64,000 nucleotides of DNA from a virus, in IMG/VR virus record IMGVR_UViG_3300025082_002887, positions 20,702-84,701 of that record; one strand, written 5' to 3'. The notes beneath the pieces were generated by a model. It did not search any database. It saw nothing but the letters and a program-made list of their open reading frames with translations, and was not told the DNA's origin. Positions within the stretch are counted from its first letter, which is position 1, and each line of letters opens with the position of its first letter. Position numbers and translations under genes: made by a program. Of the stretch, positions 5,737 through 20,825 are shown in pieces.

Positions 5737-6644
5737 ATATACATTTAGAAAATGTTAATTTACAAAGCACATCCGGTCCAAATCACTTTGCTTCAAAGTT
5801 GATTAAATATTTAGACGCCACTTTTGATTACAATGAGAAACCAGGCGCGAGATTATGTTTTATAGAGTCTCATAGAAGCACGTTCGACGACATACCCTTA
5901 TTTCAAAGGCTGGATGGCATATATTTCAACACAGCACAAGATTACAAATCGCAGAATACAAACATAAAAAGAACTTATGACAATGCAGATGGTGTTATTT
6001 TCCAATCAAACTTCAATAAAGAGCTTATAACAAAGCATTTCGGAGAACATAAAAACTCCACTGTTATACATAATGGTGCTGATGTTGAGTATATTGATAA
6101 AGTTCCACCACTGGAAAATTCAAAATTAGATCAACATGAAAATGTTTGGTGTTGCGCTTCTTCCTGGAGGCCACATAAAAGATTGTCTGAGAATATAAAA
6201 TATTTTTTAGAACACTCTTCTGAAAAGGATTGCTTAGTAATTGCAGGCCCTAAAGATCAAGATATAATTAAAAATGATAGAATTTTTTATGTTGGAAATG
6301 TAAGTATCCTTCCACTTATTTCTTTATATAAAAGATCTAAATATTTCATACATTTAGCATGGCTCGATCATTGTCCAAACGTTGTTGTAGATGCTCGCGC
6401 AGCAGATTGTCAAATTATTTGCACTTCTGCTGGAGGCACAAAAGAAATTGCTGGGCCGAATGCAATTGTGATTGAAGAAGATAAATGGGATTTTGAGCCA
6501 GTTGAATTATATAGCCCCCCCCCATTAGACTTTAGTAAAAAGATTAAAAATGATTGGGAAATAGATTATAATATGAGAGCAGTCGCAAAAAAATATAAGA
6601 ATTTTCTAGAAGGTGTGATAAATGAGAAAAACAAGACATTATAA
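5733..6644 (+). CDS. Glycosyltransferase (GT4-like)
   Basis: SGPNHF, VIHNG, WRPHKRL, DHCPNVVVDA...GGTKEI. Confidence 0.8.
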   Translation: MNIHLENVNLQSTSGPNHFASKLIKYLDATFDYNEKPGARLCFIESHRSTFDDIPLFQRLDGIYFNTAQDYKSQNTNIKRTYDNADGVIFQSNFNKELITKHFGEHKNSTVIHNGADVEYIDKVPPLENSKLDQHENVWCCASSWRPHKRLSENIKYFLEHSSEKDCLVIAGPKDQDIIKNDRIFYVGNVSILPLISLYKRSKYFIHLAWLDHCPNVVVDARAADCQIICTSAGGTKEIAGPNAIVIEEDKWDFEPVELYSPPPLDFSKKIKNDWEIDYNMRAVAKKYKNFLEGVINEKNKTL

Positions 6645-7869
6645 CAATTATAAAGAATACCTAGATCATCAAAAAACCAAGACTCTTGACCCAGCGCGCC
6701 GAAAAAAATGGCTTAATGAAGAGTGGGAATTAAAATTAGATGGTTTTGGGCGGATGTTTGATCGACATATGGGTACTGTTTTACGGCCGGAAATGAAAGT
6801 TTTATGTGTTGGCGCCCGTACAGGTCAAGAAGTAGTCGCCCTTAGAGATAGAAATATTGATGCAGTTGGAATTGATATTGTTCCACACCCACCACACGTA
6901 ATCCAAGGAGACATGCACAATCTAGATTTTCCAGATAATAGTTTTGATTTTGTCTTTTCTAATATATTTGATCATTCGTTGTATCCCGACAAGAAGATTT
7001 CAGAGATAGAAAGAGTATTGAAAACCAATGGACATGTTTTATTACAATTCCAAATTGATATTAGCCAAGATGAATATACAGAAGTTATCGTTAATCGTGT
7101 TGATCATGATGTATTGCCCTTGTTTGAAAAGTCATTTTGTATTGTTAAAGAAAATATTCCAAGAAACTTTGCAGGGATGAATTATGAAGTATTAATGAAA
7201 AAAGATGCGCTTATGTCTTCCTTGTATGATAAGGTTGGCAATGTGACAGAAATCACGTTACCAGAAGAATATAAAAAAATTTGGAATGATATAAATTTGC
7301 CAATTCAAACCAACAAAGGGCATGTACATAATATACAAGGACCCGAGCTTGATGAGTGTTTGAATAAATTATCCAAAAGGGCATATTATCTTGTCTCTAT
7401 AGCAGAACACTTCGGTGTTAAAAACATTGCTGAAGTCGGCACAGCACAAGGATGGCAATTTTACTCTTTCGCTCATTATGCACAAAAAGTTGGTGGCAAG
7501 GTTTATAGCTGCGATATTAAAGATGTTAGAAATGAACAATATAAAAATAAATATTTGAATTCATCTGTATTCTGTTTAGGGGATAGTAAACAACTAGCTA
7601 ATAGATTAAAAGAAGATAATACAAAAATTGATTTATTCTATATTGATGGCGATCACATAGCAAAAGCTGTCTTAACGGACGTGATTAACCTCAGAGATTA
7701 TCAATCGGATCAATGCATATGGGTTTTTGATGATTATGATGCAAGATTTGGGTGCTTTAAAGAGATAGGAATGTTACAACAAATTAATAATAATTTTAAA
7801 GTTTATCGTGTTGGAGATGCAGCCAGCGGAAATCCAAACCATCAAGTTGTTATATTGGGGAAACTTTAA
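6622..7869 (+). CDS. Tandem double class I SAM-dependent methyltransferase
   Basis: Domain 1: LCVGARTG, GIDI, GDMHNLDFPDNSFDFVFS. Domain 2: AEVGTAQG, SCDI, GDS, DLFYIDGDH, VFDDY (Methyltransf_24-like). Confidence 0.85.
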   Translation: MRKTRHYNNYKEYLDHQKTKTLDPARRKKWLNEEWELKLDGFGRMFDRHMGTVLRPEMKVLCVGARTGQEVVALRDRNIDAVGIDIVPHPPHVIQGDMHNLDFPDNSFDFVFSNIFDHSLYPDKKISEIERVLKTNGHVLLQFQIDISQDEYTEVIVNRVDHDVLPLFEKSFCIVKENIPRNFAGMNYEVLMKKDALMSSLYDKVGNVTEITLPEEYKKIWNDINLPIQTNKGHVHNIQGPELDECLNKLSKRAYYLVSIAEHFGVKNIAEVGTAQGWQFYSFAHYAQKVGGKVYSCDIKDVRNEQYKNKYLNSSVFCLGDSKQLANRLKEDNTKIDLFYIDGDHIAKAVLTDVINLRDYQSDQCIWVFDDYDARFGCFKEIGMLQQINNNFKVYRVGDAASGNPNHQVVILGKL

Positions 7870-7877
7870 GGAAAAAA

Positions 7878-9119
7878 ATGTTAAAAAGTTTAGAATTTAA
7901 ATCATTTGAGTTTAACTCGCGCAAAGAAACATTAATCGGCATCGACGCAACTAGAAAGTACGTAATCAAGATACAGATTATAAAAAATAAAAACAAAGCC
8001 AACAGTATAGAACAAGAATACGAAGTGATGAAACATTTAAATAAGAATGGTTGCGTAACGTGCCCAGAAGCATATGAGTTGGGGACAGTACAAAAATCAG
8101 AAATTTATCCTAAAACAAGAGAAAACAATATTTTAGATTCTATTGATAAAACAAAATTTGAATATATTATTCAAGAGTATATCCCAGACAGCGGAACACA
8201 CAAATTAGCAGATATAGTGTTAGCCCTTATTGAACAAAAAAAATTAGGAGTTTATCAAGGGGACGTAAAGCCAGATAATGTTAGATTTGATCCGAGTAAA
8301 AATATTTGTTATTTTATTGACTACGATCAGTCTATTTTTCTCAGTGATGAACAATCTAATCTAGATAATATTAGTTTTTTAAATTTTTGTTCTGAGTATG
8401 ATAAAGCCAAGTATGGCTTCGGCAATTGGCTTCGACATTTTTCTCGGTATACAGAGCGTAATGTAACATCTTTGTTTAGTAATAAGGCTTTCAATCTTGA
8501 AGCTACTACTGTTTTTAAAACTCAAAAGACTACTAATTCTGCAAGTGGCATATACCACTCTATTGATGAAAGAGACATTTTTATTAATGGCTCAAGGGCG
8601 CTGGATGTTCGTGCAAAACTATTGGATGAATGTACTTTTGATGCAAATGAAAGAGTTTTAGATATTGGTTGTAATGCGGGGCTGCTTAGCATGTATCTTC
8701 ACGATAGGGGATGCCGAACAGTTGGAGTTGATAACGATCCTCATATTGTTGTTGCATCTAAAATTATTTCAAACATTCTTGGGAAAAACATTGAGTATTT
8801 TCATCTAGATTTAGATCGCACAGAACAGGTAGAAGACTTTGATACAATAATGTTGTTTTCAGTAATTCACCACACCAGAGACCTTGTTAAGAATGCTAGA
8901 AAAATAGCAAATTCATGTTCTAGGTTTTTTTTGGAAACCAGATTAATTGAGAGCGGTAAACAACCATATGGAGATATATGGGTAGACACGACAAGATGGT
9001 CTTTTGATACTGTTGATGAATTGGTTTCTTTTTGTGAAAGTATTTTTGAAGGCTTTAAGTTGAAAACTAACTTAGGAATGGCAGATAAAGATCGTTATAT
9101 ATTAGAGTTTGTTAAGTGA
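7878..9119 (+). CDS. Kinase-like domain fused to a class I methyltransferase
   Basis: YVIKIQ (beta3 Lys), IEQEY, QEYI, QGDVKPDN catalytic loop and FIDYD; then VLDIGCNAG, GVDND and FSVIHH. Confidence 0.8.
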   Translation: MLKSLEFKSFEFNSRKETLIGIDATRKYVIKIQIIKNKNKANSIEQEYEVMKHLNKNGCVTCPEAYELGTVQKSEIYPKTRENNILDSIDKTKFEYIIQEYIPDSGTHKLADIVLALIEQKKLGVYQGDVKPDNVRFDPSKNICYFIDYDQSIFLSDEQSNLDNISFLNFCSEYDKAKYGFGNWLRHFSRYTERNVTSLFSNKAFNLEATTVFKTQKTTNSASGIYHSIDERDIFINGSRALDVRAKLLDECTFDANERVLDIGCNAGLLSMYLHDRGCRTVGVDNDPHIVVASKIISNILGKNIEYFHLDLDRTEQVEDFDTIMLFSVIHHTRDLVKNARKIANSCSRFFLETRLIESGKQPYGDIWVDTTRWSFDTVDELVSFCESIFEGFKLKTNLGMADKDRYILEFVK

Positions 9120-9739
9120 GAGATATAGCGATTAAGAAAATATGTAGTAAACTAATTGATAGATATCATATAAATTTAGATGATAAAACTGCACTAGATT
9201 TTTTTGCCAGAGAAGGAGATTGGCAGACGTCTTATTATGCCAATAAAATAAAGAAAATTTATGCATGGGAAATCAACCCTAGGCACGAACAAAATTTAAA
9301 ACAAAATTTACCTGAAAATGCTGATGTAACCATAGGAGATTCATTTGTATTGGCAAAACAAAACAATATCTTTTTTGATATGGTTGTTTTAGATAACCCA
9401 CAGGGATGTTATGGCAAAAATAAAATGTATTGCGAGCACTTTGAAGCATTAGAGCTTTCTCTTGATTTATTAAAAAACTCCGGCGCCCTACTGATTTTTA
9501 ATGTTAAGGCACAACCATTTAATTATGCGGATAACAAACAATGGCAAAAAAGACGTAATGATTTTTATTCATTAGGGGATTGTTCTTGTCTTTCTAAAGA
9601 ATTTATATTTAGTTTTTATGAAAATTATTTTAACATACGAGGATATGTAACTAAGTTTGCTTTTATAGAAACCCGACCACAAGAGCCTGGATTATATGCT
9701 TTTGTAACACAAATAGTAAGGATTGCTGATGATAATTGA
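9116..9739 (+). CDS. Putative SAM-dependent methyltransferase
   Basis: ALDFFAREG, AWEIN, IGDSF, DMVVLDNP; GTG start overlapping the upstream stop. Confidence 0.65.
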   Translation: MRDIAIKKICSKLIDRYHINLDDKTALDFFAREGDWQTSYYANKIKKIYAWEINPRHEQNLKQNLPENADVTIGDSFVLAKQNNIFFDMVVLDNPQGCYGKNKMYCEHFEALELSLDLLKNSGALLIFNVKAQPFNYADNKQWQKRRNDFYSLGDCSCLSKEFIFSFYENYFNIRGYVTKFAFIETRPQEPGLYAFVTQIVRIADDN

Positions 9740-10856
9740 GAACATAACTAATGGTTTAAATACAACAAAAAAAGCTGCTTTATATTATAAGACAGAACCC
9801 TACTATACCAATGTGGATTCTTATGTACATACAAATAACTGGGAAATATTACAATCAATAAACATCTTAAACCGGCGAGGGTATTCCGTTGATTTGTTAG
9901 ATCGGGGGATTCATAATTGGGCTCCTAAATTATCTTATGATATATTTCTTGGCCTAGGCGTAGGAAATACAGGAAGAAATTTTGTAAGGTGGGCCACCGC
10001 TTCCAGGGCCAAGCAAAAAGTTTTGTTATCGATGGGCCCTCAACCAGATGTTTCTAACAAACTGGTGCATATGCGATATGAGATGTTCAATAAAAGAACT
10101 GGACAGCATGCCCCTCCGATGAGAACCGTTGAGGCAGTAACGGGCGATCAATTTATTGAAATTATAAACACCGCAGATTTTGTGTTTAACATTGGCGAAA
10201 AAAACACTCCAAGTTATAATAGTTTTGCCAAGTATGGAAAGCCCGTTTTGAATTTTTATCCGTCTGTAAGCCCTGCTGTACAGTTCCGCCCGGATTGGAT
10301 TGAAACAAGAGACCTTAATTCATTTTTGTGTTTTGCTGGAAATGGATTTATTTGTAAGGGCGTGGACCTTGTAGTGGAATCATTTTTGAACAATCCCACA
10401 AAACAATTACATATATGTGGACCAAATACAGAAAAAGCCTTTTTTAATTATTATGGAGATCTTATCAACAAAGCACCCAACATTAAATATCATGGTTTTA
10501 TTACGCCCGGAGGAAAAGTATTTAATGAATTAGCCGCCAAGTGCTCGTTTGTCATTTTTCACTCCGCGGCCGAAGGTTGTTGCACCTCTGTTGCCACCGC
10601 AATTAAAGCCGGCCTGGTGCCAATCATTAATCCATGGACCGGCATTTGTATTAATAATCAAGATGGCATTGTATTAAGTGAAGATGGGATCTTGATTGAA
10701 AATATATCTGATGGGGTAAAAAAAGCTTCATCGATGAGCGACGCGGCCTATGAACAGATGTTGAGCCATACTTTAAAAAAATCTGAATTGTTTTCACAAC
10801 AATCCTTTATAAAAAGCTATGCAGCTGCGCTAGATACAGTGATAGGGGAGGAATAA
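9729..10856 (+). CDS. Glycosyltransferase (GT4-like)
   Basis: KGVDLVV, LHICG, SAAEGCCTSVATAIKAGLVPI. ATG at 9729 preferred over TTG at 9723. Confidence 0.8.
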   Translation: MIIENITNGLNTTKKAALYYKTEPYYTNVDSYVHTNNWEILQSINILNRRGYSVDLLDRGIHNWAPKLSYDIFLGLGVGNTGRNFVRWATASRAKQKVLLSMGPQPDVSNKLVHMRYEMFNKRTGQHAPPMRTVEAVTGDQFIEIINTADFVFNIGEKNTPSYNSFAKYGKPVLNFYPSVSPAVQFRPDWIETRDLNSFLCFAGNGFICKGVDLVVESFLNNPTKQLHICGPNTEKAFFNYYGDLINKAPNIKYHGFITPGGKVFNELAAKCSFVIFHSAAEGCCTSVATAIKAGLVPIINPWTGICINNQDGIVLSEDGILIENISDGVKKASSMSDAAYEQMLSHTLKKSELFSQQSFIKSYAAALDTVIGEE

Positions 10857-11824
10857 TGAAAATTGTTTTTAACACACAACAGCCGTATGCGCCATGTTCC
10901 ATGTTTTACACGGCAGCGTTTCAGGGAATAGACGATTTAGTTTTTTATGATAATGATTTTGCTTCATATGATGTGGCATTATTTATGACATATGATCATG
11001 AACAAATAAAACATGTTAAACGGAGGTTTCCTCAATTAAAAGTAGGCATAATTGATCCACGCAGCAGCAAAGTATATGATAGCACACAATATTGTGATTT
11101 TATTGTCATTGACAGCATTGAAATGGAAGATTTTTGGAGGATGTCTGGGAAGCCTATTTTTAGATACATTGAATACCCCAACATACCATATGTGAAGAAA
11201 GTGCATGAACAAAAAGATAAGATAATTATTGGCTACCATGGCAACCAAATTCATTTAGCATGCATGGCAGAAAATGTTACGCCCGCTTTATCGGCGCTCG
11301 GTAAAAAATACAACATAGAGCTTTTAGTTATGCACAATGGCTCTCCACCGCGCGGCAACGAAAATTGGATTCCAGATAACGTGTCAGTTCGCCACATTCC
11401 ATGGAGTATGGAAAACTATATTCATGAATTAGGACATTCAGATATAGGCATTGTGCCCAACAATAAAATACATGATGTTTCAACAAAGTTATTAACTAAA
11501 ACAAATAATAATTTTAACTATACTGATGATGATTATTCCTTAAGGTTTAAAATGCCGTCAAACCCGGGGAGGTACGTTATTTTTGGCAAATTAGGTATCC
11601 CCGTGGTTGCTGATTTCTACCCATCAGCGTTACAGTATTTAAAAAACGATGTCGGATTTGTAGCCCATAGTAAAGCCGGTTGGCACCATTGTTTGGAACA
11701 GCTAATCATTTCTTATAATTTGCGACAAAAGATGGGCGACAAACTTCAAAGTTTAGTGCGAGAAGAGTTTGATTTTGAGTTGCAAAATAAGAAACTAATT
11801 TCTTTTTTAAAAGCTAATGTATGA
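10856..11824 (+). CDS. Putative glycosyltransferase (GT-B fold)
   Basis: IIGYHGN, SDIGIVP, K..SNPGR, LGIPVVAD, LRQKMG C-terminal pattern. Confidence 0.7.
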   Translation: MKIVFNTQQPYAPCSMFYTAAFQGIDDLVFYDNDFASYDVALFMTYDHEQIKHVKRRFPQLKVGIIDPRSSKVYDSTQYCDFIVIDSIEMEDFWRMSGKPIFRYIEYPNIPYVKKVHEQKDKIIIGYHGNQIHLACMAENVTPALSALGKKYNIELLVMHNGSPPRGNENWIPDNVSVRHIPWSMENYIHELGHSDIGIVPNNKIHDVSTKLLTKTNNNFNYTDDDYSLRFKMPSNPGRYVIFGKLGIPVVADFYPSALQYLKNDVGFVAHSKAGWHHCLEQLIISYNLRQKMGDKLQSLVREEFDFELQNKKLISFLKANV

Positions 11825-12459
11825 TGATGAAAGATTTATATTTTTTTATTGCCCATTTAGATGATTTTGAAATATCGTGTTTGGGATACCTTTTTAAAAA
11901 TAAACACCAATACAATAATATTAATATTATTATATCTACGAATTGGGCACCCAAAAAAGAGATATGGAAAGAAAATCTTGAGCTGATAAAATCTAAATTA
12001 GACATTAATGTTGATTATATTAATTTGGATTACAATCAAAGAACACTGATGAGCAATTTTGACAATTTAAAAGACGACTTCTATAAACAAATAAATTTTA
12101 ATAATAGATTTGATATTGTCACGCACGATAGTGAAGATTGCCACACGGATCATATAGCCTGCAACATAATCGCCACGGGCCTTTTTAAATACACGAATAA
12201 GTTTGTAACTATATATTCACCCAGCTCTAAAAATTTTAAGGCAAATTATTGGATTGGGTTGACTAAAAAAACATATCAATTCAAAAAAGAATGTATTGAT
12301 AAATATAATATTAATAATGAACAATCTTATACAAAATTGGGCTATTATATACAAAACGAAGATCATTATAATATTGGTAAATCCTATTATCTTGAAAATT
12401 TTGTACATCAAGACTGCGATTATTATGAAACCTATAGAATACTTAAGTCTTTAGAGTGA
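11821..12459 (+). CDS. PIG-L/LmbE-family de-N-acetylase
   Basis: AHLDDFE and THDSEDCHTDH metal-binding motifs. Confidence 0.8.
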   Translation: MMMKDLYFFIAHLDDFEISCLGYLFKNKHQYNNINIIISTNWAPKKEIWKENLELIKSKLDINVDYINLDYNQRTLMSNFDNLKDDFYKQINFNNRFDIVTHDSEDCHTDHIACNIIATGLFKYTNKFVTIYSPSSKNFKANYWIGLTKKTYQFKKECIDKYNINNEQSYTKLGYYIQNEDHYNIGKSYYLENFVHQDCDYYETYRILKSLE

Positions 12460-13160
12460 GAATAAGCATACATCAGCCGGAACATATGCCATGGCTTGGT
12501 TTTTTTAACAAAGCTATTAATTGTGATATTTTTGTGCTTTTAGATACCGTTCAGTTTGAGAAGGATTATTTTCAAAATCGAAATCAAATTATATCAAATA
12601 ATGCTAATGGTCGAGAGTGGCTCACCATCCCTGTAAAAAAAGGCAGACACACAGATTTAATTTGTGAAAAACAAACAGCATTTAATCGAAAGACCAAAAA
12701 TAAATATTTACAACAAATATATAGAGCCTATAGTTCTTATCCTTTTTATCGCGATATAATGTGCGACATTACAAGCATTATTAATTATGATGATGTATAT
12801 TTATCAAAGTTGAACATCAAGCTAATAAAATATTTTATTAATCTATTAAACATAAAATGTAAATTACAAGTATCATCTGATCTTCAGTTGAGGCCATGCG
12901 AACCAGGCGGCGTAATAAATTATAATATTTGCAAGAAGCTGGGTGCAACAACGTATTTGTCGGGAAAATCAGGTAAAAATTATTTAGACGAAACCCCGTA
13001 TTTAAAAGATAATATTTCTGTTAAATACCAAAATTTTAAACATCCAGAATATCTTCAACCTAGAGACAGTTTTATTTCTAACTTGAGTATTCTAGACTTG
13101 GTTTTTTCTTTAAGTGTTGACCAGTGTTGTGATATAATAAACGAAGCATACCAGATATAA
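12456..13160 (+). CDS. wbqC: WbqC-family protein
   Basis: IHQPEHMPWLGFFNK, LDTVQF, QNRN, WLTIPV, YLSGKSGKNYL, LSILDL. Confidence 0.9.
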   Translation: MRISIHQPEHMPWLGFFNKAINCDIFVLLDTVQFEKDYFQNRNQIISNNANGREWLTIPVKKGRHTDLICEKQTAFNRKTKNKYLQQIYRAYSSYPFYRDIMCDITSIINYDDVYLSKLNIKLIKYFINLLNIKCKLQVSSDLQLRPCEPGGVINYNICKKLGATTYLSGKSGKNYLDETPYLKDNISVKYQNFKHPEYLQPRDSFISNLSILDLVFSLSVDQCCDIINEAYQI

Positions 13161-13176
13161 ATTAACAGGAGTAAAC

Positions 13177-13836
13177 GTGTTAGATAAGAAGAAAGTGAGA
13201 GGATTAATATGTGGCCGCGGCAAATCATTAAAACACTATAATAAGCTTTTATCGACAAAATTTGATTTTACTTACCTGGTTAATGAATTTAATCGATTTA
13301 TTAGAGAAGATGAAAATTTATTGTTGTTTTTAAAAAGCAAGTCAGAAGAAGGTCACTTAACCCAACAAGTCAATATCGAAGCTGGGGGAGTTGACTCTTT
13401 TTTGTTAGAAAACATAGAAATAAAAGAAATAATAATGGCTAGGTTGGCATACAATGGTGAAAACTCAAAATGGCGCCCTCGTATAAATACAAACATTTTT
13501 AATCACTTTGGAAAAACCCTACAATTACAGCCGGATACAGTCGCTCCTTATATGAAATATATTGAAAACTCTTTAGGTATTGCAATATTGAATTTAATAG
13601 TTGACAAGGGTTGCGATGAAATATGTATTATAGGCTCGGACTTTTATGAGGCTGACTATTATCTTTCCCACCGCGGCCCTGATTGGTTTGAGGTTTCTAA
13701 GAAGAAAATACAGGATAAATTAAAAAAAGGGATTGATCAGTTGGTGGAAATATTCCCAGAGGTGAAGTTTAATATTTACACCTGTTCAACTTATAAAAAT
13801 AATTTTGCTAACTGTGATATCACAAAAATTGAGTAA
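13177..13836 (+). CDS. CstII (GT42)/Maf-like putative nonulosonate transferase
   Basis: LICGRGKSL...FDFTYLVNEF and EICIIGSDFY parallel the CstII motifs IIAGNGPSL...FDVFRCNQF and EIYLSGIDFY. AGGAG RBS and GTG start. Confidence 0.55.
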   Translation: MLDKKKVRGLICGRGKSLKHYNKLLSTKFDFTYLVNEFNRFIREDENLLLFLKSKSEEGHLTQQVNIEAGGVDSFLLENIEIKEIIMARLAYNGENSKWRPRINTNIFNHFGKTLQLQPDTVAPYMKYIENSLGIAILNLIVDKGCDEICIIGSDFYEADYYLSHRGPDWFEVSKKKIQDKLKKGIDQLVEIFPEVKFNIYTCSTYKNNFANCDITKIE

Positions 13837-13844
13837 ATTTTAAT

Positions 13845-15464
13845 ATGAGCACCAAAACAGATATCGGTATGAAAATAACTTTTATTAACATGCCTCTTCG
13901 CGAATCAGCTTCGCCCAATACTCCACCCGAAGGTCCAGGTATATTAGCAGCAATTGCACGCCGGCACGGAGCAGAGTCGTATATACTTGATTTAAATGCT
14001 TATCGGATTAAAGATATCATAGCTGAAAAAAGAGGGCTCCCGAATGGAAGACACTTAACATATGATGAGGCTGAGAATTTAATAGTTCAACATATTAAAA
14101 ACGTGGGCGATCAAGACATAATTGCTTTTTCTGGCAAAATAACGACTTTAAGATGGCAAGAACAAATAGCAAAAATCATTAGAAACCATCAGCCAGATGC
14201 CTTTTTAGTAAGCGGGAATGGCCTAGCTACAGAAATCAAGACAGGCCTATTCAATTGGATTCCAGAATTAGATGCAATTGGAAGATCAGAAGGGGATGAT
14301 ATTATTCTTTTAATTTTGCAAGATGCAAAAACTATAAAAGAAATGGGGATTAATAAGGCTTTACGATCCGGTAGACTAAGCACATCTTACATAGGGGAAC
14401 TTAATGGAAAACATAGGTTTTGCTATGAAGGTGATAGGCCTCGTAATCTAGATGTGATCCCATATGCAGCGTGGGATTTATTAGAGTCTGATCCATATGG
14501 TCATAATGTTTTAGAAGACTACATTAAAATACCGGTGTGGGGAATTGCTGCAAATAATAGCTCTGCCACCCCTTTTACTATGGAGAGAAGCTTAACTACA
14601 GTTAGTAGTCGTGGCTGTCCGTATGCATGCGCATTTTGCTACCGCGGCTCTCAAGGCGAGCGAAATTATGGGATGAGATCTCCAGAGCACATTGCAAAAC
14701 AAATTAAAGAGTATGTTGATAATTACAATCTAGATTTTATAGGCTTTCCAGATGATAATTTTGCAGTAGATAAAAGAAGAATGGAAAGAATCCCAGAAGT
14801 TTTTAAGGAATACGGAATTAATCATATTAGGTGGGGCACACACACTCGTATGGATGAAGCAGATGAACGAATATTCGACATGGCACGAGGTGGGTGTGTA
14901 TATATTGGCTTTGGAGCAGAATCTGCTTCTCCTCACACTTTGAAGCTCATGAAAAAGGGCGGTTTTATATTAAAAAATGGCCTAACGCCAACAAAAATTA
15001 ATGGAAAAATTTATGAGTTTCCAACAACCATGGTTAACGCCGTTAAAAACAGTAAAAAAGCTGGTGTACACGCAAACTGTACTTGGATCATGGCATACCC
15101 AGGAGAAGAGCTAAAACATTTAAAAACAAGCGTAGCATTTATTTTATGGCAACAGGAATTTTGGTCGAATAGAGAATCAGTGAATAGAAAAATGTTTACA
15201 GCAACTGCATATCCCGGGACAGAAATGTGGAAAGTGGTTCGCCCACAATTAGAAAAGCATTTTAATATCAATTTTAATGTTATGGGAGAGCCCATTTGTG
15301 ATGAAAATTTTCATCAATATGTTTTAGAATTAGATGATGCTACGAAAGTTTTAAATAATAAACATGGAAATCCTGTAAATTTTGGCAGGATGCCAATGGA
15401 AACTTTCCTACAGGCTAGAGACTATGTTAATTCTGATCAAATAGAAAAGATCTTAGACATGTAG
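13845..15464 (+). CDS. Cobalamin-binding radical SAM protein (class B methylase-like)
   Basis: PPEGPGILAA N-terminal B12-domain pattern, SRGCPYACAFC (CxxxCxxC), FPDDNF, GFGAES, YPGT. Confidence 0.9.
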   Translation: MSTKTDIGMKITFINMPLRESASPNTPPEGPGILAAIARRHGAESYILDLNAYRIKDIIAEKRGLPNGRHLTYDEAENLIVQHIKNVGDQDIIAFSGKITTLRWQEQIAKIIRNHQPDAFLVSGNGLATEIKTGLFNWIPELDAIGRSEGDDIILLILQDAKTIKEMGINKALRSGRLSTSYIGELNGKHRFCYEGDRPRNLDVIPYAAWDLLESDPYGHNVLEDYIKIPVWGIAANNSSATPFTMERSLTTVSSRGCPYACAFCYRGSQGERNYGMRSPEHIAKQIKEYVDNYNLDFIGFPDDNFAVDKRRMERIPEVFKEYGINHIRWGTHTRMDEADERIFDMARGGCVYIGFGAESASPHTLKLMKKGGFILKNGLTPTKINGKIYEFPTTMVNAVKNSKKAGVHANCTWIMAYPGEELKHLKTSVAFILWQQEFWSNRESVNRKMFTATAYPGTEMWKVVRPQLEKHFNINFNVMGEPICDENFHQYVLELDDATKVLNNKHGNPVNFGRMPMETFLQARDYVNSDQIEKILDM

Positions 15465-15471
15465 GGAATAT

Positions 15472-16239
15472 ATGTCAAAAGCTATATTTATAACAGTTCG
15501 ATCCGGATCATCCCGATTACCAAAAAAAGCGTTATTAAAAATTAATGATGCTGCAACAATAGAACATTTAATAAATCATGTAAGAAAATCACAAAAAGCT
15601 GATAAAATTGTTGTTTGTACTACTGTCTCTAAAAATGACGACGAAATTTGTGCTTTGGCAGAGAAGAGCGGAGTTAATTTTTTTAGAGGGAGCATTAAAG
15701 ATAAATTAGATAGATGTTTAAAAGCTGCGTTGCATTATAATATAGAATATTTTGTTAATGTTGATGGAGATGATATCTTTTGCGAGCCGGAATTAATTGA
15801 TTTGGCTTTTGATCAGTATGAAGCTGACAATCATGATTTCATAAAGTCAAATGAAAAAGACCTTGTTTGCGGAGCTTTCACTTTTGGTATTAAAACAGAG
15901 GCGCTAAAAGAAATCTGTCGTATTAAAGATACTGATGATACTGAAGCTGCGTGGCTTTTATTTTCTGAAATTTCTTCTATTAAGACGTCAATGCTGGACA
16001 ATATACCCGAGATATATTGCCGTCCAGAAATAAGAGCAACCCTGGATTACTCAGAAGATCTAGAATTTTTTAAAGCTATAATTGATCATTTTCACGACCG
16101 AAACAAAAAACAATTTAGCTTGAGAGATATTATATCTTTTATAGATTCGAATCCTGACGTTCTGTTAATCAACAGACACAGGCATAAAGATTATTTAGAA
16201 AATCAAAAAAAATTATTAAAAAATATAGGAGTCCAATAG
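15472..16239 (+). CDS. Cytidylyltransferase (SpsF/NeuA/KdsB family)
   Basis: VRSGSSRLPKKAL, FFRGS, VDGDD, RATLDYSEDLEF. Confidence 0.9.
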   Translation: MSKAIFITVRSGSSRLPKKALLKINDAATIEHLINHVRKSQKADKIVVCTTVSKNDDEICALAEKSGVNFFRGSIKDKLDRCLKAALHYNIEYFVNVDGDDIFCEPELIDLAFDQYEADNHDFIKSNEKDLVCGAFTFGIKTEALKEICRIKDTDDTEAAWLLFSEISSIKTSMLDNIPEIYCRPEIRATLDYSEDLEFFKAIIDHFHDRNKKQFSLRDIISFIDSNPDVLLINRHRHKDYLENQKKLLKNIGVQ

Positions 16240-17256
16240 ATGTCCGAATTAAAAGAAAGAGTTACATATCATTCCGGTGAATGGGTACCGGAATCTAAAG
16301 CTGCGATTCATATATATGATTCTCAGTTTATGTATGGAGATGGTGTTTTTGAGATGGTTAGAACTTTTAAACATAAGTTCTTTTTGTTGGAAGAGCATAT
16401 CGACAGGCTTTATAGAAGCATGAAGTACATGCATATACCATTTAATAAAACAAAACAAGAAGCAATTGATTTATGTTTAGAATCATTTGATAGAAACAAG
16501 GCCCACTTTCCGGAAGGAGAAGAGTGTCGTGTGATGATTAATGTTTCTAGGGGTCCACTAGGCATATATAAAGAAGTATTTGAGCTATCCAAAAGTCAAG
16601 CTTGGAATGAACCAACTTGGATTGTGAATGTTTGGCCTCTTAGTAAAACTGCTGGAATATTAGGGCATTTTTATGAGACAGGCGCTAATGCGGTGATTCC
16701 ATCACAAAGACAAATCCCCTCGCGCCTGTTGGAAAACAAAGTTAAAAATAGGAGTAGATTTCATTACCAAATGGCAAATATACAGGTTTCTTCTTTTGGC
16801 AAGGATGCTATGCCGTTGTTATTAGATGAGGATGGCTTTATAACTGAGAGCACAGGCGCAAACTTTTTAATGATAAAAGATGGAAAGTTGATTGCTCCGG
16901 AGCTAAGAAACATGCTCAGAGGCTCTAGTATGATGTATATTTTGGAAGTTTTAGCTCCTCAAATTGGTTTAGAAGTGGTTCATAAAAACTTTGAACCTTA
17001 TGATGTTATGAATTGTGATGAGGCTATGTTCACTGGAACTTTTGTTAATTTGCTCCCTTGTAATAGATTAAACGGAATATATCTTAATGCGGACATAAAA
17101 GAAAATCCAATTGGGCCGGTCACACAAAGAATTTGTGACGCATGGTCAAAAAATGTTGGGATTAATTTTATAGGACAAATAAAAGATTGGTCTAAAAATG
17201 TTTCTTCAGTGGGCATATCAAGTGCAATGTTGGGGTCTGGAGGTGAAAATGAGTAA
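16240..17256 (+). CDS. PLP-dependent aminotransferase class IV (IlvE/Dat/PabC fold)
   Basis: YGDGVFE, HIDRL, catalytic-Lys region NKVKNRS, ITESTGAN, EAMFTGT. Confidence 0.9.
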   Translation: MSELKERVTYHSGEWVPESKAAIHIYDSQFMYGDGVFEMVRTFKHKFFLLEEHIDRLYRSMKYMHIPFNKTKQEAIDLCLESFDRNKAHFPEGEECRVMINVSRGPLGIYKEVFELSKSQAWNEPTWIVNVWPLSKTAGILGHFYETGANAVIPSQRQIPSRLLENKVKNRSRFHYQMANIQVSSFGKDAMPLLLDEDGFITESTGANFLMIKDGKLIAPELRNMLRGSSMMYILEVLAPQIGLEVVHKNFEPYDVMNCDEAMFTGTFVNLLPCNRLNGIYLNADIKENPIGPVTQRICDAWSKNVGINFIGQIKDWSKNVSSVGISSAMLGSGGENE

Positions 17257-17944
17257 GAGGATAATTATAACCGGCTCAGAGGGGCTTTTAGGAAAAGAGA
17301 TAAGTAGATATTTAGAATCTACTGGCCACTCTGTGATCGGGTGTGATTTACAGCTTGGTCACGATTTAACAGATGAAGAATTTGTAAAAGATTTTTTTAA
17401 GAAAAATAAAGCAGATTGTTTAGCAAATTTGTATGCTATTAATCCACATGTGAATTCAGAGGATTACTCTACAAACATGTTTGATATAACTTTAGATTCT
17501 TTAAATTCGTATTTACAGGTTAACCTTTTGAGTCTTTTTTCTGTTTGTAGAGAATATGCAAGAAATAATAAAAATGGCTCTATAATTAATTTTTCTTCGA
17601 CATATGGAATTGTATCGCCCAATCCTGCGCTTTATGAAGAGGGAAAAGAAAAACATATTGGCTATTGCGTTTCTAAATCTGGTGTGATACAATTAACTAG
17701 ATATTTGGCTGTACACTTAGCACCAAATATCAGGGTAAACTGCGTAGCACCAGGAGGCGTTACTTTTGAACCCACTAACGAACATAGTAAAAAGTTTATT
17801 GAACAATACAGAGAGAAAACACCTATGAAAAGAATGATGAATGTTGATGAATTAAATGGAATTATCGAATATTTATGTTCTGACAAATCCTCATATGCTA
17901 CTGGGACTACCTTTCATATTGACGGGGGCTGGACCATATGGTAG
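17249..17944 (+). CDS. Short-chain dehydrogenase/reductase
   Basis: ITGSEGLLG, NFSSTYG, YCVSK (YxxxK), IRVNCVAPGG, IDGG. Start moved to the ATG at 17249, behind GGAGGTG. Confidence 0.9.
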   Translation: MSKRIIITGSEGLLGKEISRYLESTGHSVIGCDLQLGHDLTDEEFVKDFFKKNKADCLANLYAINPHVNSEDYSTNMFDITLDSLNSYLQVNLLSLFSVCREYARNNKNGSIINFSSTYGIVSPNPALYEEGKEKHIGYCVSKSGVIQLTRYLAVHLAPNIRVNCVAPGGVTFEPTNEHSKKFIEQYREKTPMKRMMNVDELNGIIEYLCSDKSSYATGTTFHIDGGWTIW

Positions 17945-18789
17945 ATTTTAGAAATTTAAATAAACATTATTTTATTGGTGAGATCGGCATTAATCATAAC
18001 GGCGATTTGCAAATAGCAAAAAAATTAATTGATGCGGTGCATGCATGTAACTGGGATTGCGCCAAATTCCAAAAAAGAAATCCCGATGTCTGCGTGCCAG
18101 AACATCAAAAAAACGTCTTAAGGGAAACACCATGGGGCACTTTAAAATATATTGACTATAAATACAGAGTTGAATTTGGTAAAGAAAAATATGATTATAT
18201 AAATTCTTATTGTGGCGAAAAACCAGTCGATTGGTCAGCTTCTGTTTGGGATTTAAATAGTTTAGATTTTCTGTTACAATATAATCTGCCTTTTATTAAA
18301 ATCCCTTCTGCCATGGTGGCTAATGAGGTTTTAGTGGCAGAAACTGCAAAGTCTGGTAAACCTATTATAATGTCAACTGGTATGTGCAACATAGAAGAAG
18401 TGGACAGTGCTGTAAATAATGTATTGAAATATAACGATAATCTAGTTTTAATGCACACAAACTCTAGTTACCCGACACCCAAAGAGGAACTAAACTTAAG
18501 TTTAATACCTTTCTTAAAGGAACGTTACAATTGCACAGTAGGATACTCGGGGCATGAAGAGGATCTAGAACCAACAGTGATCGCTGCAGTACTGGGTGCT
18601 AAAGTTATTGAAAGGCATATAACATTGTCGCACGATATGTGGGGCACAGATCAAAAATCAAGTTTAGAAGTATTGGCAATGGATATATTACAAAAGAGAA
18701 TAAAAGATATCGACAAGATTGTGGGAAAACCAATCAAGGAAGTTACAAATAGTGAAGTCAATATTAGAAAGAAGTTGAGGGGATATTAA
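17938..18789 (+). CDS. neuB: N-acetylneuraminate/nonulosonate synthase (NeuB family), short form without the SAF domain
   Basis: IGEIGINHNGD, AKFQKR, KIPSA, MSTGM, HTNSSYP, GYSGHE, IERHITL, GTDQ. Confidence 0.92.
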   Translation: MVDFRNLNKHYFIGEIGINHNGDLQIAKKLIDAVHACNWDCAKFQKRNPDVCVPEHQKNVLRETPWGTLKYIDYKYRVEFGKEKYDYINSYCGEKPVDWSASVWDLNSLDFLLQYNLPFIKIPSAMVANEVLVAETAKSGKPIIMSTGMCNIEEVDSAVNNVLKYNDNLVLMHTNSSYPTPKEELNLSLIPFLKERYNCTVGYSGHEEDLEPTVIAAVLGAKVIERHITLSHDMWGTDQKSSLEVLAMDILQKRIKDIDKIVGKPIKEVTNSEVNIRKKLRGY

Positions 18790-18814
18790 TGAAAAGTAGT
18801 TATGATGTGATTAA

Positions 18815-19126
18815 ATGGTAATTTATGTAGATATTGATGAAACAATTTGTATAACACCAGGAGATGCGCATACGGCAAGAAATTATGAAAATGCAAAACC
18901 TCTATTAAAAAACATTGAAAAATGTAATAAACTATATGAAGATGGTAATACAATTGTATATTGGACCGCCAGAGGGTGTACAACTGGTATAGATTGGTTT
19001 GACGTTACAGAAAAGCAATTAAATGAATGGGATGTTAAATATCACGATCTAAAATTGGGAAAGCCATTTTATGATTTATTTATTGATGATAAAGCAATAA
19101 ATTCAAAAGATTTTTTTAAAAATTAG
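18815..19126 (+). CDS. Small HAD-family phosphatase (capsule-biosynthesis type)
   Basis: VDIDETI (DxDxT), WTARG, GKP, FIDDKA. Confidence 0.85.
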   Translation: MVIYVDIDETICITPGDAHTARNYENAKPLLKNIEKCNKLYEDGNTIVYWTARGCTTGIDWFDVTEKQLNEWDVKYHDLKLGKPFYDLFIDDKAINSKDFFKN

Positions 19127-19137
19127 GAGGAAAATAG

Positions 19138-20022
19138 ATGGCTAAATGCTTAGTTACGGGTCATAAAGGATATATTGGCTCAAAAGTATATGCAAGATTA
19201 AAGGAATTAGGACACGAGGTACAAGGAATAGATCTTTTTGATGGTTATGATATATTAAAAGATTTAAAAGAATATAATGAACCAATGCGTGGTCGTTTCC
19301 ATCCACATTATCATGAGTTCAAGCCAGAATATATTTTTCATTTAGCCTGCATCCCGCGTGTTGCTTATAGTGTTGAAAACCCTGCGCGTACAATGAAAAA
19401 CAATGTTCTAGCTACGACATATATCCTTAATTTTGCTAGAAAAAGAAATGTAAAGCGCGTTATTTATTCTGGATCGTCTTCAGTCGTTGGTAATGGATCC
19501 GGCCCGAGCAGCCCATATGGATTACAAAAATTAATTTCAGAGATGGAATGTAAATTGTATTCTGATTTATATGGATTAGATACTGTTTCTTTACGTTACT
19601 TTAACGTATATTCTCCAGATCAAGAGGCAAGCGGCCCGTATGCAACGGCAATCGCAAATTGGATGCAATATATTAGAGATGGCAAAACTCCATATATAAC
19701 TGGTAACGGGGAACAAAAACGCGATATGGCACATTTAAATGATATAGTGTCGGCAAATATTTTTGCAATGGAACATAAAAAGGATTTCAATGGACAACAT
19801 TTTGATGTTGGGACAGGTAGCAATATTTCTTTAAATGAAATTAAGAATATTGTTTTAGATTATTTTCCAAATATAAAATTTGATTACACTGAAGAAAGAA
19901 AGGGCGATGTACTACACACACAAGCAAATATATTGCCTTTAAAAGAGTTAGGATGGCACGCTAAAGTGAACATCGTTGATGGCATTAACGAATGCTTTAA
20001 AATATTAAAAGAAAGGAGTTAG
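19138..20022 (+). CDS. NAD-dependent nucleotide-sugar epimerase/dehydratase
   Basis: VTGHKGYIGS, FHLA, SPYGLQK (YxxxK), LRYFNVY, GNGEQKRD. AGGAGG RBS. Confidence 0.9.
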   Translation: MAKCLVTGHKGYIGSKVYARLKELGHEVQGIDLFDGYDILKDLKEYNEPMRGRFHPHYHEFKPEYIFHLACIPRVAYSVENPARTMKNNVLATTYILNFARKRNVKRVIYSGSSSVVGNGSGPSSPYGLQKLISEMECKLYSDLYGLDTVSLRYFNVYSPDQEASGPYATAIANWMQYIRDGKTPYITGNGEQKRDMAHLNDIVSANIFAMEHKKDFNGQHFDVGTGSNISLNEIKNIVLDYFPNIKFDYTEERKGDVLHTQANILPLKELGWHAKVNIVDGINECFKILKERS

Positions 20023-20024
20023 AA

Positions 20025-20273
20025 ATGACACAAGATAAAAATATGTCAATGTCAGACCAAGCAGTGGGGGCCGTTATGATGGCTCTCCAAAAAAGTTTAA
20101 TGGAACAAAGCGATATTGTTCCGGTGCTAAAAGGGTTTAAATTTAGATTATCCAAACAAGGTCTTGCCGTTTTGAACCCACCTATTGTTAAGTTCAATGA
20201 GGAAACCCAAAATAATTTTCAAGAAAGTTTAGATTTTGGAGACCAAGACCATTCTGAAGATTCAACTTCATAA
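20025..20273 (+). CDS. Hypothetical protein
   Basis: AAGGAG RBS, tight packing; no recognisable motif. Confidence 0.7.
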   Translation: MTQDKNMSMSDQAVGAVMMALQKSLMEQSDIVPVLKGFKFRLSKQGLAVLNPPIVKFNEETQNNFQESLDFGDQDHSEDSTS

Positions 20274-20527
20274 TGCCCATCTATATTTATGGTTGTGATA
20301 ATTGTGGAAGTGAAACAACAGTCAGCCATTCAATGACTGAAATAATAGAAGACTGCGAAGTATGCGAAATTTCTAGTTCTTTAACTAGAAGGCCTTCTAT
20401 GTTTTCCAATATCAAAAAGAAACCAGAACAAAAACAAAAAGTTGGTGACTATGTTGAAGGCTTTATAAAAGAGGCTGAACAAGATTTAAAACAACAAAAA
20501 AACAATTTGAGGAAAAAGAATGATTGA
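20273..20527 (+). CDS. FmdB-family zinc-ribbon protein
   Basis: MPIYIYGCDNCG...CEVC. Confidence 0.8.
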   Translation: MPIYIYGCDNCGSETTVSHSMTEIIEDCEVCEISSSLTRRPSMFSNIKKKPEQKQKVGDYVEGFIKEAEQDLKQQKNNLRKKND

Positions 20528-20822: not shown

Positions 20823-20825
20823 TGT

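What the first reader, a model, noticed from the sequence alone, without database searches (positions are those of the whole stretch)
13177..19126. Apparently complete nonulosonic (sialic-like) acid pathway in a phage, probably via a phosphorylated intermediate
Seen: NeuB synthase (283 aa, no C-terminal SAF domain), an adjacent small HAD phosphatase, a cytidylyltransferase and a CstII/Maf-like transferase, covering synthesis, dephosphorylation, activation and transfer. No NeuC epimerase and no DegT-type PseC/LegC aminotransferase is visible. Established: synthase + HAD phosphatase + cytidylyltransferase is the logic of 9-phosphate routes such as Bacteroides KDN synthesis. Inference: the product is not standard Neu5Ac, Pse or Leg, and may be a KDN-like or new ulosonic acid.
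Basis: partly seen in the sequence, partly recalled or inferred. Interest (0 to 1): 0.75.

Follow-up and report, generated by a model that had tools for sequence, protein, structure and literature searches.

The report
Phage cassette for modified sialic-like sugar
A large uncultured marine phage carries seven adjacent genes that most likely build a sialic-acid-like sugar from a sugar phosphate, add an amino group, activate it with CMP and attach it with a miniature sialyltransferase; the gene kit is widespread but its product has never been identified.

Summary
No NeuC or DegT gene lies on the 84.7-kb contig, and two complete relatives have no NeuC.

In five sister phages a DegT aminotransferase fills the class IV slot. 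In bacteria a class III aminotransferase fills it.

The same NeuB clade sits beside a KdsC/KDN-9-P-type phosphatase in 65 of 79 bacterial loci, often fused to the cytidylyltransferase. This supports a phosphorylated intermediate.

The likely product is an amino-substituted, possibly methylated, CMP-activated ulosonic acid. It is not plain KDN, and not canonical Neu5Ac, Pse or Leg.

This is the phage version of a widespread, biochemically untested cassette. This scan had already reached the same reading on other phage and bacterial DNA. The sugar's identity, carbon number and acceptor remain inference.

The parts
13177..13836 (+). Miniature GT42-like (CstII/Cst-I-like) CMP-sugar transferase, 219 aa
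   Evidence: No Pfam, NCBIfam or PHROG match. AF2 model pLDDT 88.5. Foldseek top hits are CstII and Cst-I, probability 1.0, TM 0.55-0.59. Family profile A3 hits Cst-I 2P2V at 3.7e-9 and CstII at 4e-5 by sequence, aligning GRGxSL, VNEF and GSDFYE with GNGPSL, CNQF and GIDFY.
13845..15464 (+). B12-binding-type radical SAM enzyme, 539 aa (tailoring: C-methylation most likely, radical dehydration possible)
   Evidence: PF04055 at 9.7e-19. PF02310 scores 20.4 bits, below its cut-off. Best NCBIfam matches are BchE and P-methyltransferase families, all far below cut-off. CPYACAFC motif at residue 258. Present at 72-75% identity in L003, L004, L006, L007 and L009. Absent from the bacterial cassettes.
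15472..16239 (+). KdsB-like CMP-ulosonate cytidylyltransferase, 255 aa
   Evidence: PF02348 at 8.7e-21. KdsB subfamily models score 61 bits against 22.5 for PseF, all below cut-off. Full-length match to PDB 6OEW at 5.8e-22. N-terminal RSGSSRLPKK motif.
16240..17256 (+). Class IV (BCAT/D-AAT fold) aminotransferase, 338 aa, in the sugar-aminotransferase slot
   Evidence: PF01063 at 3.3e-36. Best PDB matches are archaeal BCATs, then (R)-amine transaminases; the catalytic Lys is aligned. The same slot holds DegT in L002, L007, L008, L011 and L012 and a class III aminotransferase in Melioribacter L049.
17249..17944 (+). Classical SDR oxidoreductase (PtmA/PRK09186-like), about 231 aa; the ORF opens at 17198 but the likely start is 17249
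   Evidence: PF13561 at 1.9e-34; NF006619 scores 135 bits. TGSEGLLG Rossmann motif and the Ser / YxxxK triad are present. Conserved at 46-80% in 11 of 15 phage loci and at 30-36% in 48 of 79 bacterial loci.
17938..18789 (+). SAF-less NeuB-family ulosonate (phosphate) synthase, 283 aa
   Evidence: PF03102 at 3.4e-63. TIGR03569 scores 218 bits against a cut-off of 400; TIGR03586 scores 162 against 340. Best PDB match is the SAF-less 6NCS. Catalytic and metal residues are conserved, the Nm Glu134 position is Met, and a clade signature FQKR-P / PW / Y71 / Y74 / E79 is present. The 13 phage sequences form one clade, support 97.
18815..19126 (+). Capless mini-HAD phosphatase, 103 aa
   Evidence: Motifs DIDET, TAR, K and DD. 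PDB 9IQW at 7e-11 and 1XPJ. TIGR01689 at 1.2e-6. phrog_1238 at 3e-26. Adjacent to NeuB in 13 of 15 phage loci; in L008 it occupies the position of the bacterial KdsC-type HAD.
19138..20022 (+). GalE-like NAD epimerase/dehydratase, 294 aa; a neighbour, not a conserved member of the cassette
   Evidence: PF01370 at 1.6e-44. An orthologue (62-76% identity) occurs only in L003-L006.
1569..13160 (+). Upstream part of the same tightly packed glycan island: four GT4/GT2 transferases, methyltransferases, a further GT1-like transferase (GT1_377, 9723-10856), PIG-L deacetylase, WbqC-like protein and two unknowns
   Evidence: Pfam. Gene gaps of -23 to +25 nt and no hydrophobic segment in any of the 19 proteins.

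Best explanation
The stretch is the phage version of a widespread, biochemically uncharacterised cassette that makes and uses a CMP-activated, amino-substituted 3-deoxy-2-ulosonic (sialic-acid-like) sugar.

Proposed steps:
1. The SAF-less NeuB condenses phosphoenolpyruvate with a host sugar phosphate to give a phospho-ulosonate.
2. The mini-HAD removes the phosphate.
3. The SDR oxidises one hydroxyl.
4. The class IV aminotransferase converts the resulting carbonyl to an amine.
5. The B12-type radical SAM enzyme adds a further tailoring step, most likely C-methylation.
6. The KdsB-like enzyme makes the CMP-sugar.
7. The miniature GT42-like transferase attaches it to a cytoplasmic acceptor. This is probably a glycan built by the upstream transferases on a phage structural protein.

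Shown here: gene identities, intact catalytic motifs, conservation of the gene set, and interchange of analogous enzymes in fixed slots.

Inferred: the substrate, the carbon number, the position of the amine, the order of the tailoring steps and the acceptor.
For: - Domain assignments and motifs are intact.
- The core CMP-transferase / aminotransferase / SDR / NeuB / HAD set is conserved in related phages.
- The aminotransferase slot is filled by class IV in the window and five loci, by DegT in five loci and by class III in bacteria. Such replacement implies a conserved amination step.
- In bacteria the same NeuB clade adjoins a KdsC-family phosphatase in 65 of 79 loci. In L049 that phosphatase's best model is the B. 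thetaiotaomicron KDN-9-P phosphatase, at 157 bits. In L081 and L084 it is fused to the cytidylyltransferase.
- Loci with only HAD and NeuB (Chlorobi), and phage L009 without SDR or aminotransferase, show that the phosphatase goes with the synthase and that SDR plus aminotransferase is an optional tailoring module.
- NeuB keeps its metal and catalytic residues and carries a clade-specific signature.
- The transferase is GT42-like by fold and by profile.
- All 19 island proteins lack hydrophobic segments and the genes are packed like an operon.
- Published precedents exist. Kdn-9-P synthase and phosphatase are characterised in B. thetaiotaomicron and P. parvum (PMC6200933). A Leptospira NeuB::phosphatase fusion lies next to an aminotransferase and a CMP synthetase (PMC3438082, PMC4758666). 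Kdo8N is made by oxidation then transamination of free Kdo (Gattis 2013, as cited in PMC5125639).
Against: - No enzyme of this clade has been assayed.
- The phage phosphatase belongs to a different HAD family from the KdsC type, so its substrate is inferred from position only.
- Class IV aminotransferases are not known to act on sugars and could act on an alpha-keto acid.
- The radical SAM enzyme's B12 domain scores below the Pfam cut-off, and its chemistry is open.
- The catalytic base of the GT42-like protein was not located.
- No RNA or glycan data exist.
- The contig is about half a genome.
Confidence: 0.6

Rival explanations
1. Kanosamine-like order. The SDR, aminotransferase and HAD first turn a sugar 6-phosphate into a free amino sugar, as NtdC/NtdA/NtdB or RifL/K/M do. 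NeuB then condenses the unphosphorylated amino sugar with PEP, so there is no phospho-ulosonate intermediate.
For: The triad of dehydrogenase, aminotransferase and HAD phosphatase is the logic of kanosamine synthesis (my own knowledge of NtdABC, not tested here). In phage L008 and in bacterial type-A loci the order SDR-HAD-NeuB fits either scheme.
Against: Many loci have HAD and NeuB without any SDR or aminotransferase (Chlorobi, Planctomycetes, phage L009). The bacterial HAD is KdsC/KDN-9-P-type, a family specialised on ulosonate phosphates, and is fused to the cytidylyltransferase, the enzyme that would use its product. NeuB stays 61-78% identical between phage loci with and without the tailoring genes, which suggests one shared substrate.
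Confidence: 0.13
2. Plain KDN (or another deaminated ulosonic acid) is the product. The SDR, aminotransferase and radical SAM genes would serve a different sugar of the island.
For: Synthase, phosphatase and cytidylyltransferase alone reproduce the Kdn pathway (PMC6200933). Minimal HAD-plus-NeuB loci exist in bacteria.
Against: The SDR and aminotransferase lie between the cytidylyltransferase and NeuB with overlapping or abutting reading frames. They keep that place in phages and bacteria even though the aminotransferase fold changes.
Confidence: 0.08
3. A canonical Neu5Ac, legionaminic or pseudaminic acid is made. The missing early steps (NeuC, PseB/C or LegB/C) would be supplied by the host or by the unsequenced half of the genome.
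For: The contig is about 48% complete. Ricaldi et al. proposed Neu5Ac as the product of a Leptospira synthase-phosphatase fusion (PMC3438082). Two complete relatives carry a short DegT-like gene next to the cassette.
Against: NeuB scores about half of both equivalog cut-offs. It lacks the SAF domain and the Glu134 equivalent. Complete 203-kb and 186-kb relatives have no NeuC. The bacterial cassettes are self-contained six-gene units. Canonical NeuB paralogues present in the same genomes fall outside the clade.
Confidence: 0.08
4. The cassette does not feed a glycan on the virion. It remodels the host surface during infection (for example to block superinfection), or it makes a soluble metabolite.
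For: No acceptor is known and no virion data exist. Phage-encoded modification of host surface glycans is well known (my own knowledge).
Against: No flippase, polymerase, ABC exporter or any membrane protein lies among the 19 island genes. The island sits beside a late-sigma-like gene and the baseplate module. A dedicated CMP-sugar transferase is present. This rival concerns only the acceptor, not the chemistry.
Confidence: 0.25

Closest known systems
CMP-Kdn pathway of Bacteroides thetaiotaomicron and Prymnesium parvum (Kdn-9-P synthase, Kdn-9-P phosphatase BT1713, CMP-Kdn synthetase; PMC6200933)
   Same: A NeuB-family synthase, a dedicated phosphatase and a cytidylyltransferase. In bacterial members of this NeuB clade the phosphatase is best matched by the BT1713 model NF058599.
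   Different: The phage phosphatase is a 103-aa capless HAD of another family. An SDR, an aminotransferase and a radical SAM enzyme are added, so the end product should not be Kdn. Whether BT1714 belongs to this NeuB clade could not be tested.
Kdo and Kdo8N pathways (KdsA/KdsC/KdsB; KdnB oxidase plus KdnA aminotransferase of Shewanella, Gattis 2013 as cited in PMC5125639)
   Same: Phospho-ulosonate, then phosphatase, then oxidation and transamination of the free acid, then CMP activation. The cytidylyltransferase scores best with KdsB models.
   Different: The synthase is NeuB-family, not KdsA. The oxidase is an SDR, not an iron alcohol dehydrogenase. The aminotransferase here is class IV. The carbon number is unknown.
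Leptospira interrogans second NulO set (NeuB2::phosphatase fusion NP_711794, aminotransferase NP_711795, NeuA2; PMC3438082, PMC4758666) and the Leptospira structures 6NCS and 6OEW
   Same: A divergent synthase linked to a phosphatase, next to an aminotransferase and a CMP synthetase. The best PDB matches of the phage NeuB and cytidylyltransferase are 6NCS and 6OEW. Their Leptospira origin is from my memory.
   Different: In Leptospira the phosphatase is a fused domain of another fold, and the product was proposed, not shown, to be Neu5Ac. Identity to 6NCS is modest (111 bits), and 6NCS has Asp at the Glu134 position.
Campylobacter jejuni CstII / Cst-I sialyltransferases (GT42)
   Same: The same fold, and sequence-profile homology over the CMP-binding half including the GxGxSL and GxDFY motifs.
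   Different: It is about 40-70 residues shorter, with no Pfam match. The region holding the CstII catalytic His did not align. The family is almost entirely viral, with 222 representatives of about 200-250 aa.
Canonical bacterial Neu5Ac, Pse and Leg pathways (NeuC/NeuB/NeuA; PseB-I; LegB-I)
   Same: A NeuB-family condensation with PEP, followed by CMP activation.
   Different: There is no NeuC, no 4,6-dehydratase/DegT pair acting on a nucleotide sugar, no SAF domain and no acetyltransferase. The equivalog HMM cut-offs are not reached.

Membership tests
NeuB family (PF03102) ulosonate synthases | NeuB TIM-barrel domain over the Pfam threshold | tested here: met
   213.8 bits against a cut-off of 22.1, covering 240 of 241 profile positions.
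NeuB family (PF03102) ulosonate synthases | Catalytic and metal residues of N. meningitidis NeuB (E25, K53, K129, E134, H215, E234, H236) | tested here: inconclusive
   E15, K43, K121, H206, E225 and H227 are invariant in 16 phage and 79 bacterial sequences. The E134 position is Met/Leu/Lys in phages and Ser/Leu/Ala/Cys in bacteria, never acidic.
N-acetylneuraminate synthase / pseudaminic acid synthase equivalogs (TIGR03569, TIGR03586) | Score above the curated equivalog cut-off, with the C-terminal SAF domain | tested here: not met
   218 against 400 bits and 162 against 340 bits. The protein ends after the NeuB domain.
9-phosphate (Kdn / animal Neu5Ac-type) route | A dedicated ulosonate-phosphate phosphatase encoded with the synthase | tested here: met
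   A HAD is adjacent in 13 of 15 phage loci. A KdsC/KDN-9-P-type HAD is adjacent or fused in 65 of 79 bacterial loci. The phage HAD itself belongs to a different HAD family.
9-phosphate (Kdn / animal Neu5Ac-type) route | The synthase requires a phosphorylated aldose | not testable with these tools
   This needs an enzyme assay. The invariant clade-specific Lys46/Arg47 after the KFQ strand are only a lead.
HAD superfamily phosphatases | Motifs I-IV (DxDxT, T/S, K, DD) | tested here: met
   DIDET at residues 6-10, TAR, GKP and IDDKA, aligned with 9IQW and 1XPJ.
GT42 sialyltransferases (CstII / Cst-I) | GT-A-variant fold with a CMP-binding N-terminal half | tested here: met
   Foldseek probability 1.0, TM 0.55-0.59. 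Profile A3 against Cst-I gives 3.7e-9 over profile positions 9-174.
GT42 sialyltransferases (CstII / Cst-I) | Catalytic His (His188 of CstII) and the Tyr pair that binds the phosphate | tested here: inconclusive
   The GSDFYE.DYY region aligns with GIDFY. The alignment stops before the CstII His region. His165 of the phage protein is not invariant in the family.
Class IV aminotransferases (PF01063) | Fold-type IV domain with the catalytic Lys | tested here: met
   125.6 bits. The Lys in NKVKNRS aligns with the BCAT Schiff-base Lys of 5MQZ.
Class B (cobalamin-dependent) radical SAM enzymes | CxxxCxxC cluster motif together with an N-terminal B12-binding domain | tested here: inconclusive
   CPYACAFC is present and PF04055 scores 68.6 bits. 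PF02310 scores only 20.4 bits against a cut-off of 32.1.
Canonical Neu5Ac / Pse / Leg gene sets | NeuC-type 2-epimerase, or a nucleotide-sugar 4,6-dehydratase with a DegT aminotransferase | tested here: not met
   PF02350 and PF01041 are absent from the 84.7-kb record. PF02350 is absent from two complete relatives.

The most novel reading that the evidence does not exclude
The phage makes a previously undescribed ulosonic acid: amino-substituted and C-methylated (or deoxygenated) by a B12-type radical SAM enzyme. The amine would be installed by a class IV aminotransferase, which would be the first sugar-acting member of that fold. A new, almost exclusively viral family of miniature GT42 transferases would then place the sugar on its own virion proteins.
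Probability: 0.35. Interest if true: 0.8.

Novelty: new variant of a known kind. Interest (0 to 1): 0.62.

Why it matters
Sialic-acid-like sugars shape recognition between cells, viruses and immune systems. The known bacterial routes start from nucleotide sugars.

This cassette points to a second route based on a sugar phosphate. It is very common: more than 8000 close NeuB relatives were found in metagenomes, and the cassette occurs in many bacterial phyla. Its product has never been identified.

In phages three of its steps are carried out by unrelated replacement enzymes: the mini-HAD, the class IV aminotransferase and the mini-GT42. A radical SAM enzyme is added on top. Abundant marine phages may therefore decorate themselves, or their hosts, with an unknown acidic amino sugar.

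If confirmed, this would add a new sugar, new enzyme specificities and a new example of phage-encoded glycosylation.

Tried and rejected
- **Named phylogeny.** A tree against characterised Neu, Leg, Pse and Kdn synthases could not be built, because no tool gave me those sequences by reference. Wang 2008 (PMC4425688) is not held. Only canonical paralogues from the fetched loci served as an outgroup (quick tree; the careful search did not finish).
- **GT42-like protein, early searches.** The first 12-sequence profile found nothing in the PDB by sequence. Pfam scans of 50 family members gave only two weak MptE-like hits. The ESM Atlas gave only viral 'hypothetical' clusters, one of them with 13% MptE-like members.
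- **PDB entry 9IQW.** No relevant paper was found.
- **Literature on phage NulO pathways.** Searches for phage-encoded NulO pathways, or for this cassette, found nothing specific.
- **GenBank phages.** DNA similarity of the cassette gave two short hits only. By protein, NeuB has three hits and no cultured phage among them. PHROGs has no family for NeuB, the cytidylyltransferase, the aminotransferase, the radical SAM enzyme or the transferase.
- **Transcription signals.** Sigma-70-like promoters, terminators and the T4 late-promoter motif TATAAATA all occur at background frequency.
- **Expression.** No RNA holder was listed.
- **Upstream 20.7 kb of the contig.** It holds no sugar-pathway gene.
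- **Cluster look-up.** Look-up of NCBI-sourced NeuB relatives returned no organism names.

Full report
**Setting.** The window is bases 20702-84701 of an 84.7-kb IMG/VR phage record that CheckV rates about 48% complete. Bases 1569-20022 hold 19 genes on the + strand, with gaps of -23 to +25 nt and no hydrophobic segment in any product. A PD-(D/E)XK nuclease gene lies upstream. Downstream lie a weakly late-sigma-like gene, giant structural proteins and gp25/gp6-like baseplate wedge genes. The finding covers the last part of this island.

**Observation.**
- NeuB (17938-18789, 283 aa) matches PF03102 over 240 of 241 positions and stops there, so it has no SAF domain.
- The 103-aa protein at 18815-19126 has the four HAD motifs. 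It matches capless HADs 9IQW (7e-11) and 1XPJ, TIGR01689 and phrog_1238.
- The protein at 15472-16239 is a CTP_transf_3 cytidylyltransferase that scores best with KdsB models. It aligns end to end with PDB 6OEW.
- The 219-aa protein at 13177-13836 has no match in Pfam, NCBIfam or PHROGs, and only phage homologues.

For the 219-aa protein, an AlphaFold model built on those homologues (pLDDT 88.5) finds CstII and Cst-I as its top twelve or so PDB matches (probability 1.0, TM 0.55-0.59). A full-library HMM search gave 222 representatives, nearly all 200-250 aa. A profile of 50 of them hits Cst-I at 3.7e-9 and CstII at about 4e-5 by sequence. It aligns GRGxSL, VNEF and GSDFYE with the GT42 motifs. 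The 'CstII-like transferase' is therefore real, and it is a miniature, mostly viral branch of GT42.

Three genes lie between the four it named:
- a radical SAM enzyme with a weak B12-binding domain and a CPYACAFC motif (13845-15464);
- a class IV aminotransferase with its catalytic Lys (16240-17256);
- a classical SDR with an intact Rossmann motif and Ser-Tyr-Lys triad, whose likely start is 17249.

**Is the gene set meaningful?** Fifteen related phage loci were fetched, with NeuB at 40-78% identity. Eleven have the cytidylyltransferase, eleven the SDR and thirteen the mini-HAD next to NeuB.

The gene between the cytidylyltransferase and the SDR is the class IV aminotransferase in this window and in L001, L003, L004, L006 and L010. 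In L002, L007, L008, L011 and L012 the same slot holds a DegT-family aminotransferase (1e-75 to 1e-81).

The nearest cellular NeuB relatives (45-59% identity) come from Chloroflexota, Chlorobiota, Ignavibacteriota, Bacteroidota, Planctomycetota, Actinomycetota and CPR genomes. In Melioribacter (L049) the order is:
- a putative NulO transferase;
- a cytidylyltransferase;
- a class III aminotransferase;
- an SDR;
- a 179-aa HAD;
- NeuB.

In Bellilinea (L081) and Blastopirellula (L084) the cytidylyltransferase and the HAD are one fused protein next to NeuB. Three unrelated aminotransferase folds in one slot is strong evidence that amination of a carbonyl made by the SDR is a conserved step.

Contigs from four other marine metagenomes are identical to the window across every gene junction of the cassette and show no indels. 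The arrangement is therefore not an assembly artefact.

**Phosphorylated intermediate.** Among 79 bacterial loci, 65 have a KdsC-family HAD within 6 kb on the same strand as NeuB, usually directly upstream. The L049 HAD scores above the cut-off for the KdsC family. Its best single model is the B. thetaiotaomicron KDN-9-P phosphatase, at 157 bits against a cut-off of 180.

Chlorobi loci carry only HAD plus NeuB, and phage L009 lacks the SDR and aminotransferase. The phosphatase therefore travels with the synthase, not with the amination pair. Its fusion to the cytidylyltransferase fits the order phosphatase, then activation.

In phages the KdsC-type enzyme is replaced by the mini-HAD. In L008 the mini-HAD occupies exactly the bacterial position, SDR-HAD-NeuB.

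It argues against the rival in which SDR, aminotransferase and HAD first make a free amino sugar. It is still inference, because no enzyme of the clade has been assayed.

**The synthase.** The phage NeuB reaches only 218 of 400 bits for the Neu5Ac-synthase equivalog and 162 of 340 for PseI. Its best solved relative is the SAF-less 6NCS.

Aligned to N. meningitidis NeuB, the positions of E25, K53, K129, H215, E234 and H236 are invariant in 16 phage and 79 bacterial sequences. The E134 position is never acidic. The clade also shares an invariant signature (FQKR-P, PW, Y71, Y74, E79, W99, E207, W235) in a loop that canonical enzymes lack.

In a quick maximum-likelihood tree the 13 close phage sequences form one clade (support 97), sister to a CPR MAG sequence. 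They stand apart from the bacterial SAF-less clade and from the canonical paralogues found in the same genomes.

SAF-less NeuB proteins are known as an environmental group of unknown specificity (PMC8208679).

**Missing genes elsewhere?** No NeuC or DegT lies on this contig. Two complete relatives (203 kb, and 186 kb with terminal repeats) have no NeuC. Each has only a short DegT-like gene next to the cassette. The upstream 20.7 kb holds no sugar gene.

**Mechanism proposed.** The steps and their basis are:
1. PEP plus a host sugar phosphate gives a phospho-ulosonate (NeuB). The enzyme family is shown; the substrate is inferred.
2. Dephosphorylation by the mini-HAD. Inferred from position and from the bacterial KdsC analogues.
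3. Oxidation by the SDR and transamination by the class IV enzyme. Inferred from slot conservation and from the Kdo8N precedent, in which free Kdo is oxidised and then aminated.
4. Radical SAM tailoring, probably C-methylation. Weak inference; this step is phage-specific.
5. CMP activation.
6. Transfer by the GT42-like enzyme.

Every island protein is soluble and there is no export gene. The acceptor is therefore probably cytoplasmic, plausibly a virion protein carrying a glycan built by the upstream transferases. Host-surface remodelling is not excluded.

**Comparison with known systems.** The closest characterised system is the Kdn pathway of B. thetaiotaomicron and P. parvum (PMC6200933). 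The closest in logic for the amino group is Kdo8N. The closest published hypothesis is the Leptospira NeuB2-phosphatase fusion with its neighbouring aminotransferase and CMP synthetase (PMC3438082, PMC4758666).

The phage version differs from all three in four ways: the phosphatase family, the aminotransferase fold, the added radical SAM enzyme and the miniature transferase.

No cultured phage in GenBank or PHROGs carries this NeuB. More than 8000 relatives, many at 70-82% identity, occur in marine metagenomes.

**Relation to earlier notes of this scan.** The same cassette was already followed up on a 186-kb and a 203-kb marine phage and in a bacterium, with the same reading. My tests reproduce that reading independently on this DNA. 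They add the sequence-level link of the transferase to GT42, the residue analysis of NeuB, and the counts over 79 bacterial loci.

**Verdict.** It is wrong to lean towards KDN. This is a new variant of a known kind of pathway, and it is worth a biochemical test.

Noticed in passing
G000:C1:16141-17193 (L096:7142-8194), upstream of the window: A 350-aa ORF that an earlier first-stage note called an archaeal-type GAPDH has no Pfam match at E <= 0.01.
   Followed up: partly
L096:9842-11152: A PIN-domain::PhoH fusion protein (436 aa) lies just upstream of the window.
   Followed up: no
window 783-1559 and 20826-21521: The glycan island lies between a PD-(D/E)XK nuclease gene and a weakly late-sigma-like gene (phrog_234, 33.5 bits). 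The small genes at 20025-21808 are syntenic with the cassette in most related phages, while the island's content varies from phage to phage.
   Followed up: partly
window 15164-15189: In two independent marine runs a contig skips 24 nt inside the radical SAM gene. This is an in-frame eight-codon length variant in related strains.
   Followed up: no
window 18814-18850 and 19087-19119: Contigs from four marine runs diverge at both ends of the mini-HAD gene. The HAD gene therefore occurs in several different flanking contexts (gene-level mosaicism).
   Followed up: no
L014:9306-9995: A related phage has a weak GT29 (animal-type sialyltransferase, PF00777, 4e-5) look-alike directly upstream of NeuB, in place of the GT42-like gene.
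   Followed up: no
L001:7687-8430: One related phage carries a second, short (247 aa), very divergent NeuB-like gene inside the cassette, between the aminotransferase and the SDR.
   Followed up: no
window 11821-13160: A PIG-L-type deacetylase and a WbqC-family protein lie directly upstream of the cassette. They have no counterpart in the 15 related phage loci. They may tailor an N-acyl group but were not studied.
   Followed up: no
window 21812-25828, 26858-34828, 38641-49278: Three very large structural-region proteins of 1338, 2656 and 3545 aa. The first has a weak Peptidase_M74 match.
   Followed up: no
L016 (CPR MAG, Staskawiczbacteria): The closest non-viral NeuB (59% identity) is on a CPR MAG contig and groups with the phage clade. 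It may be a prophage, a mis-binned phage contig or a transfer.
   Followed up: no
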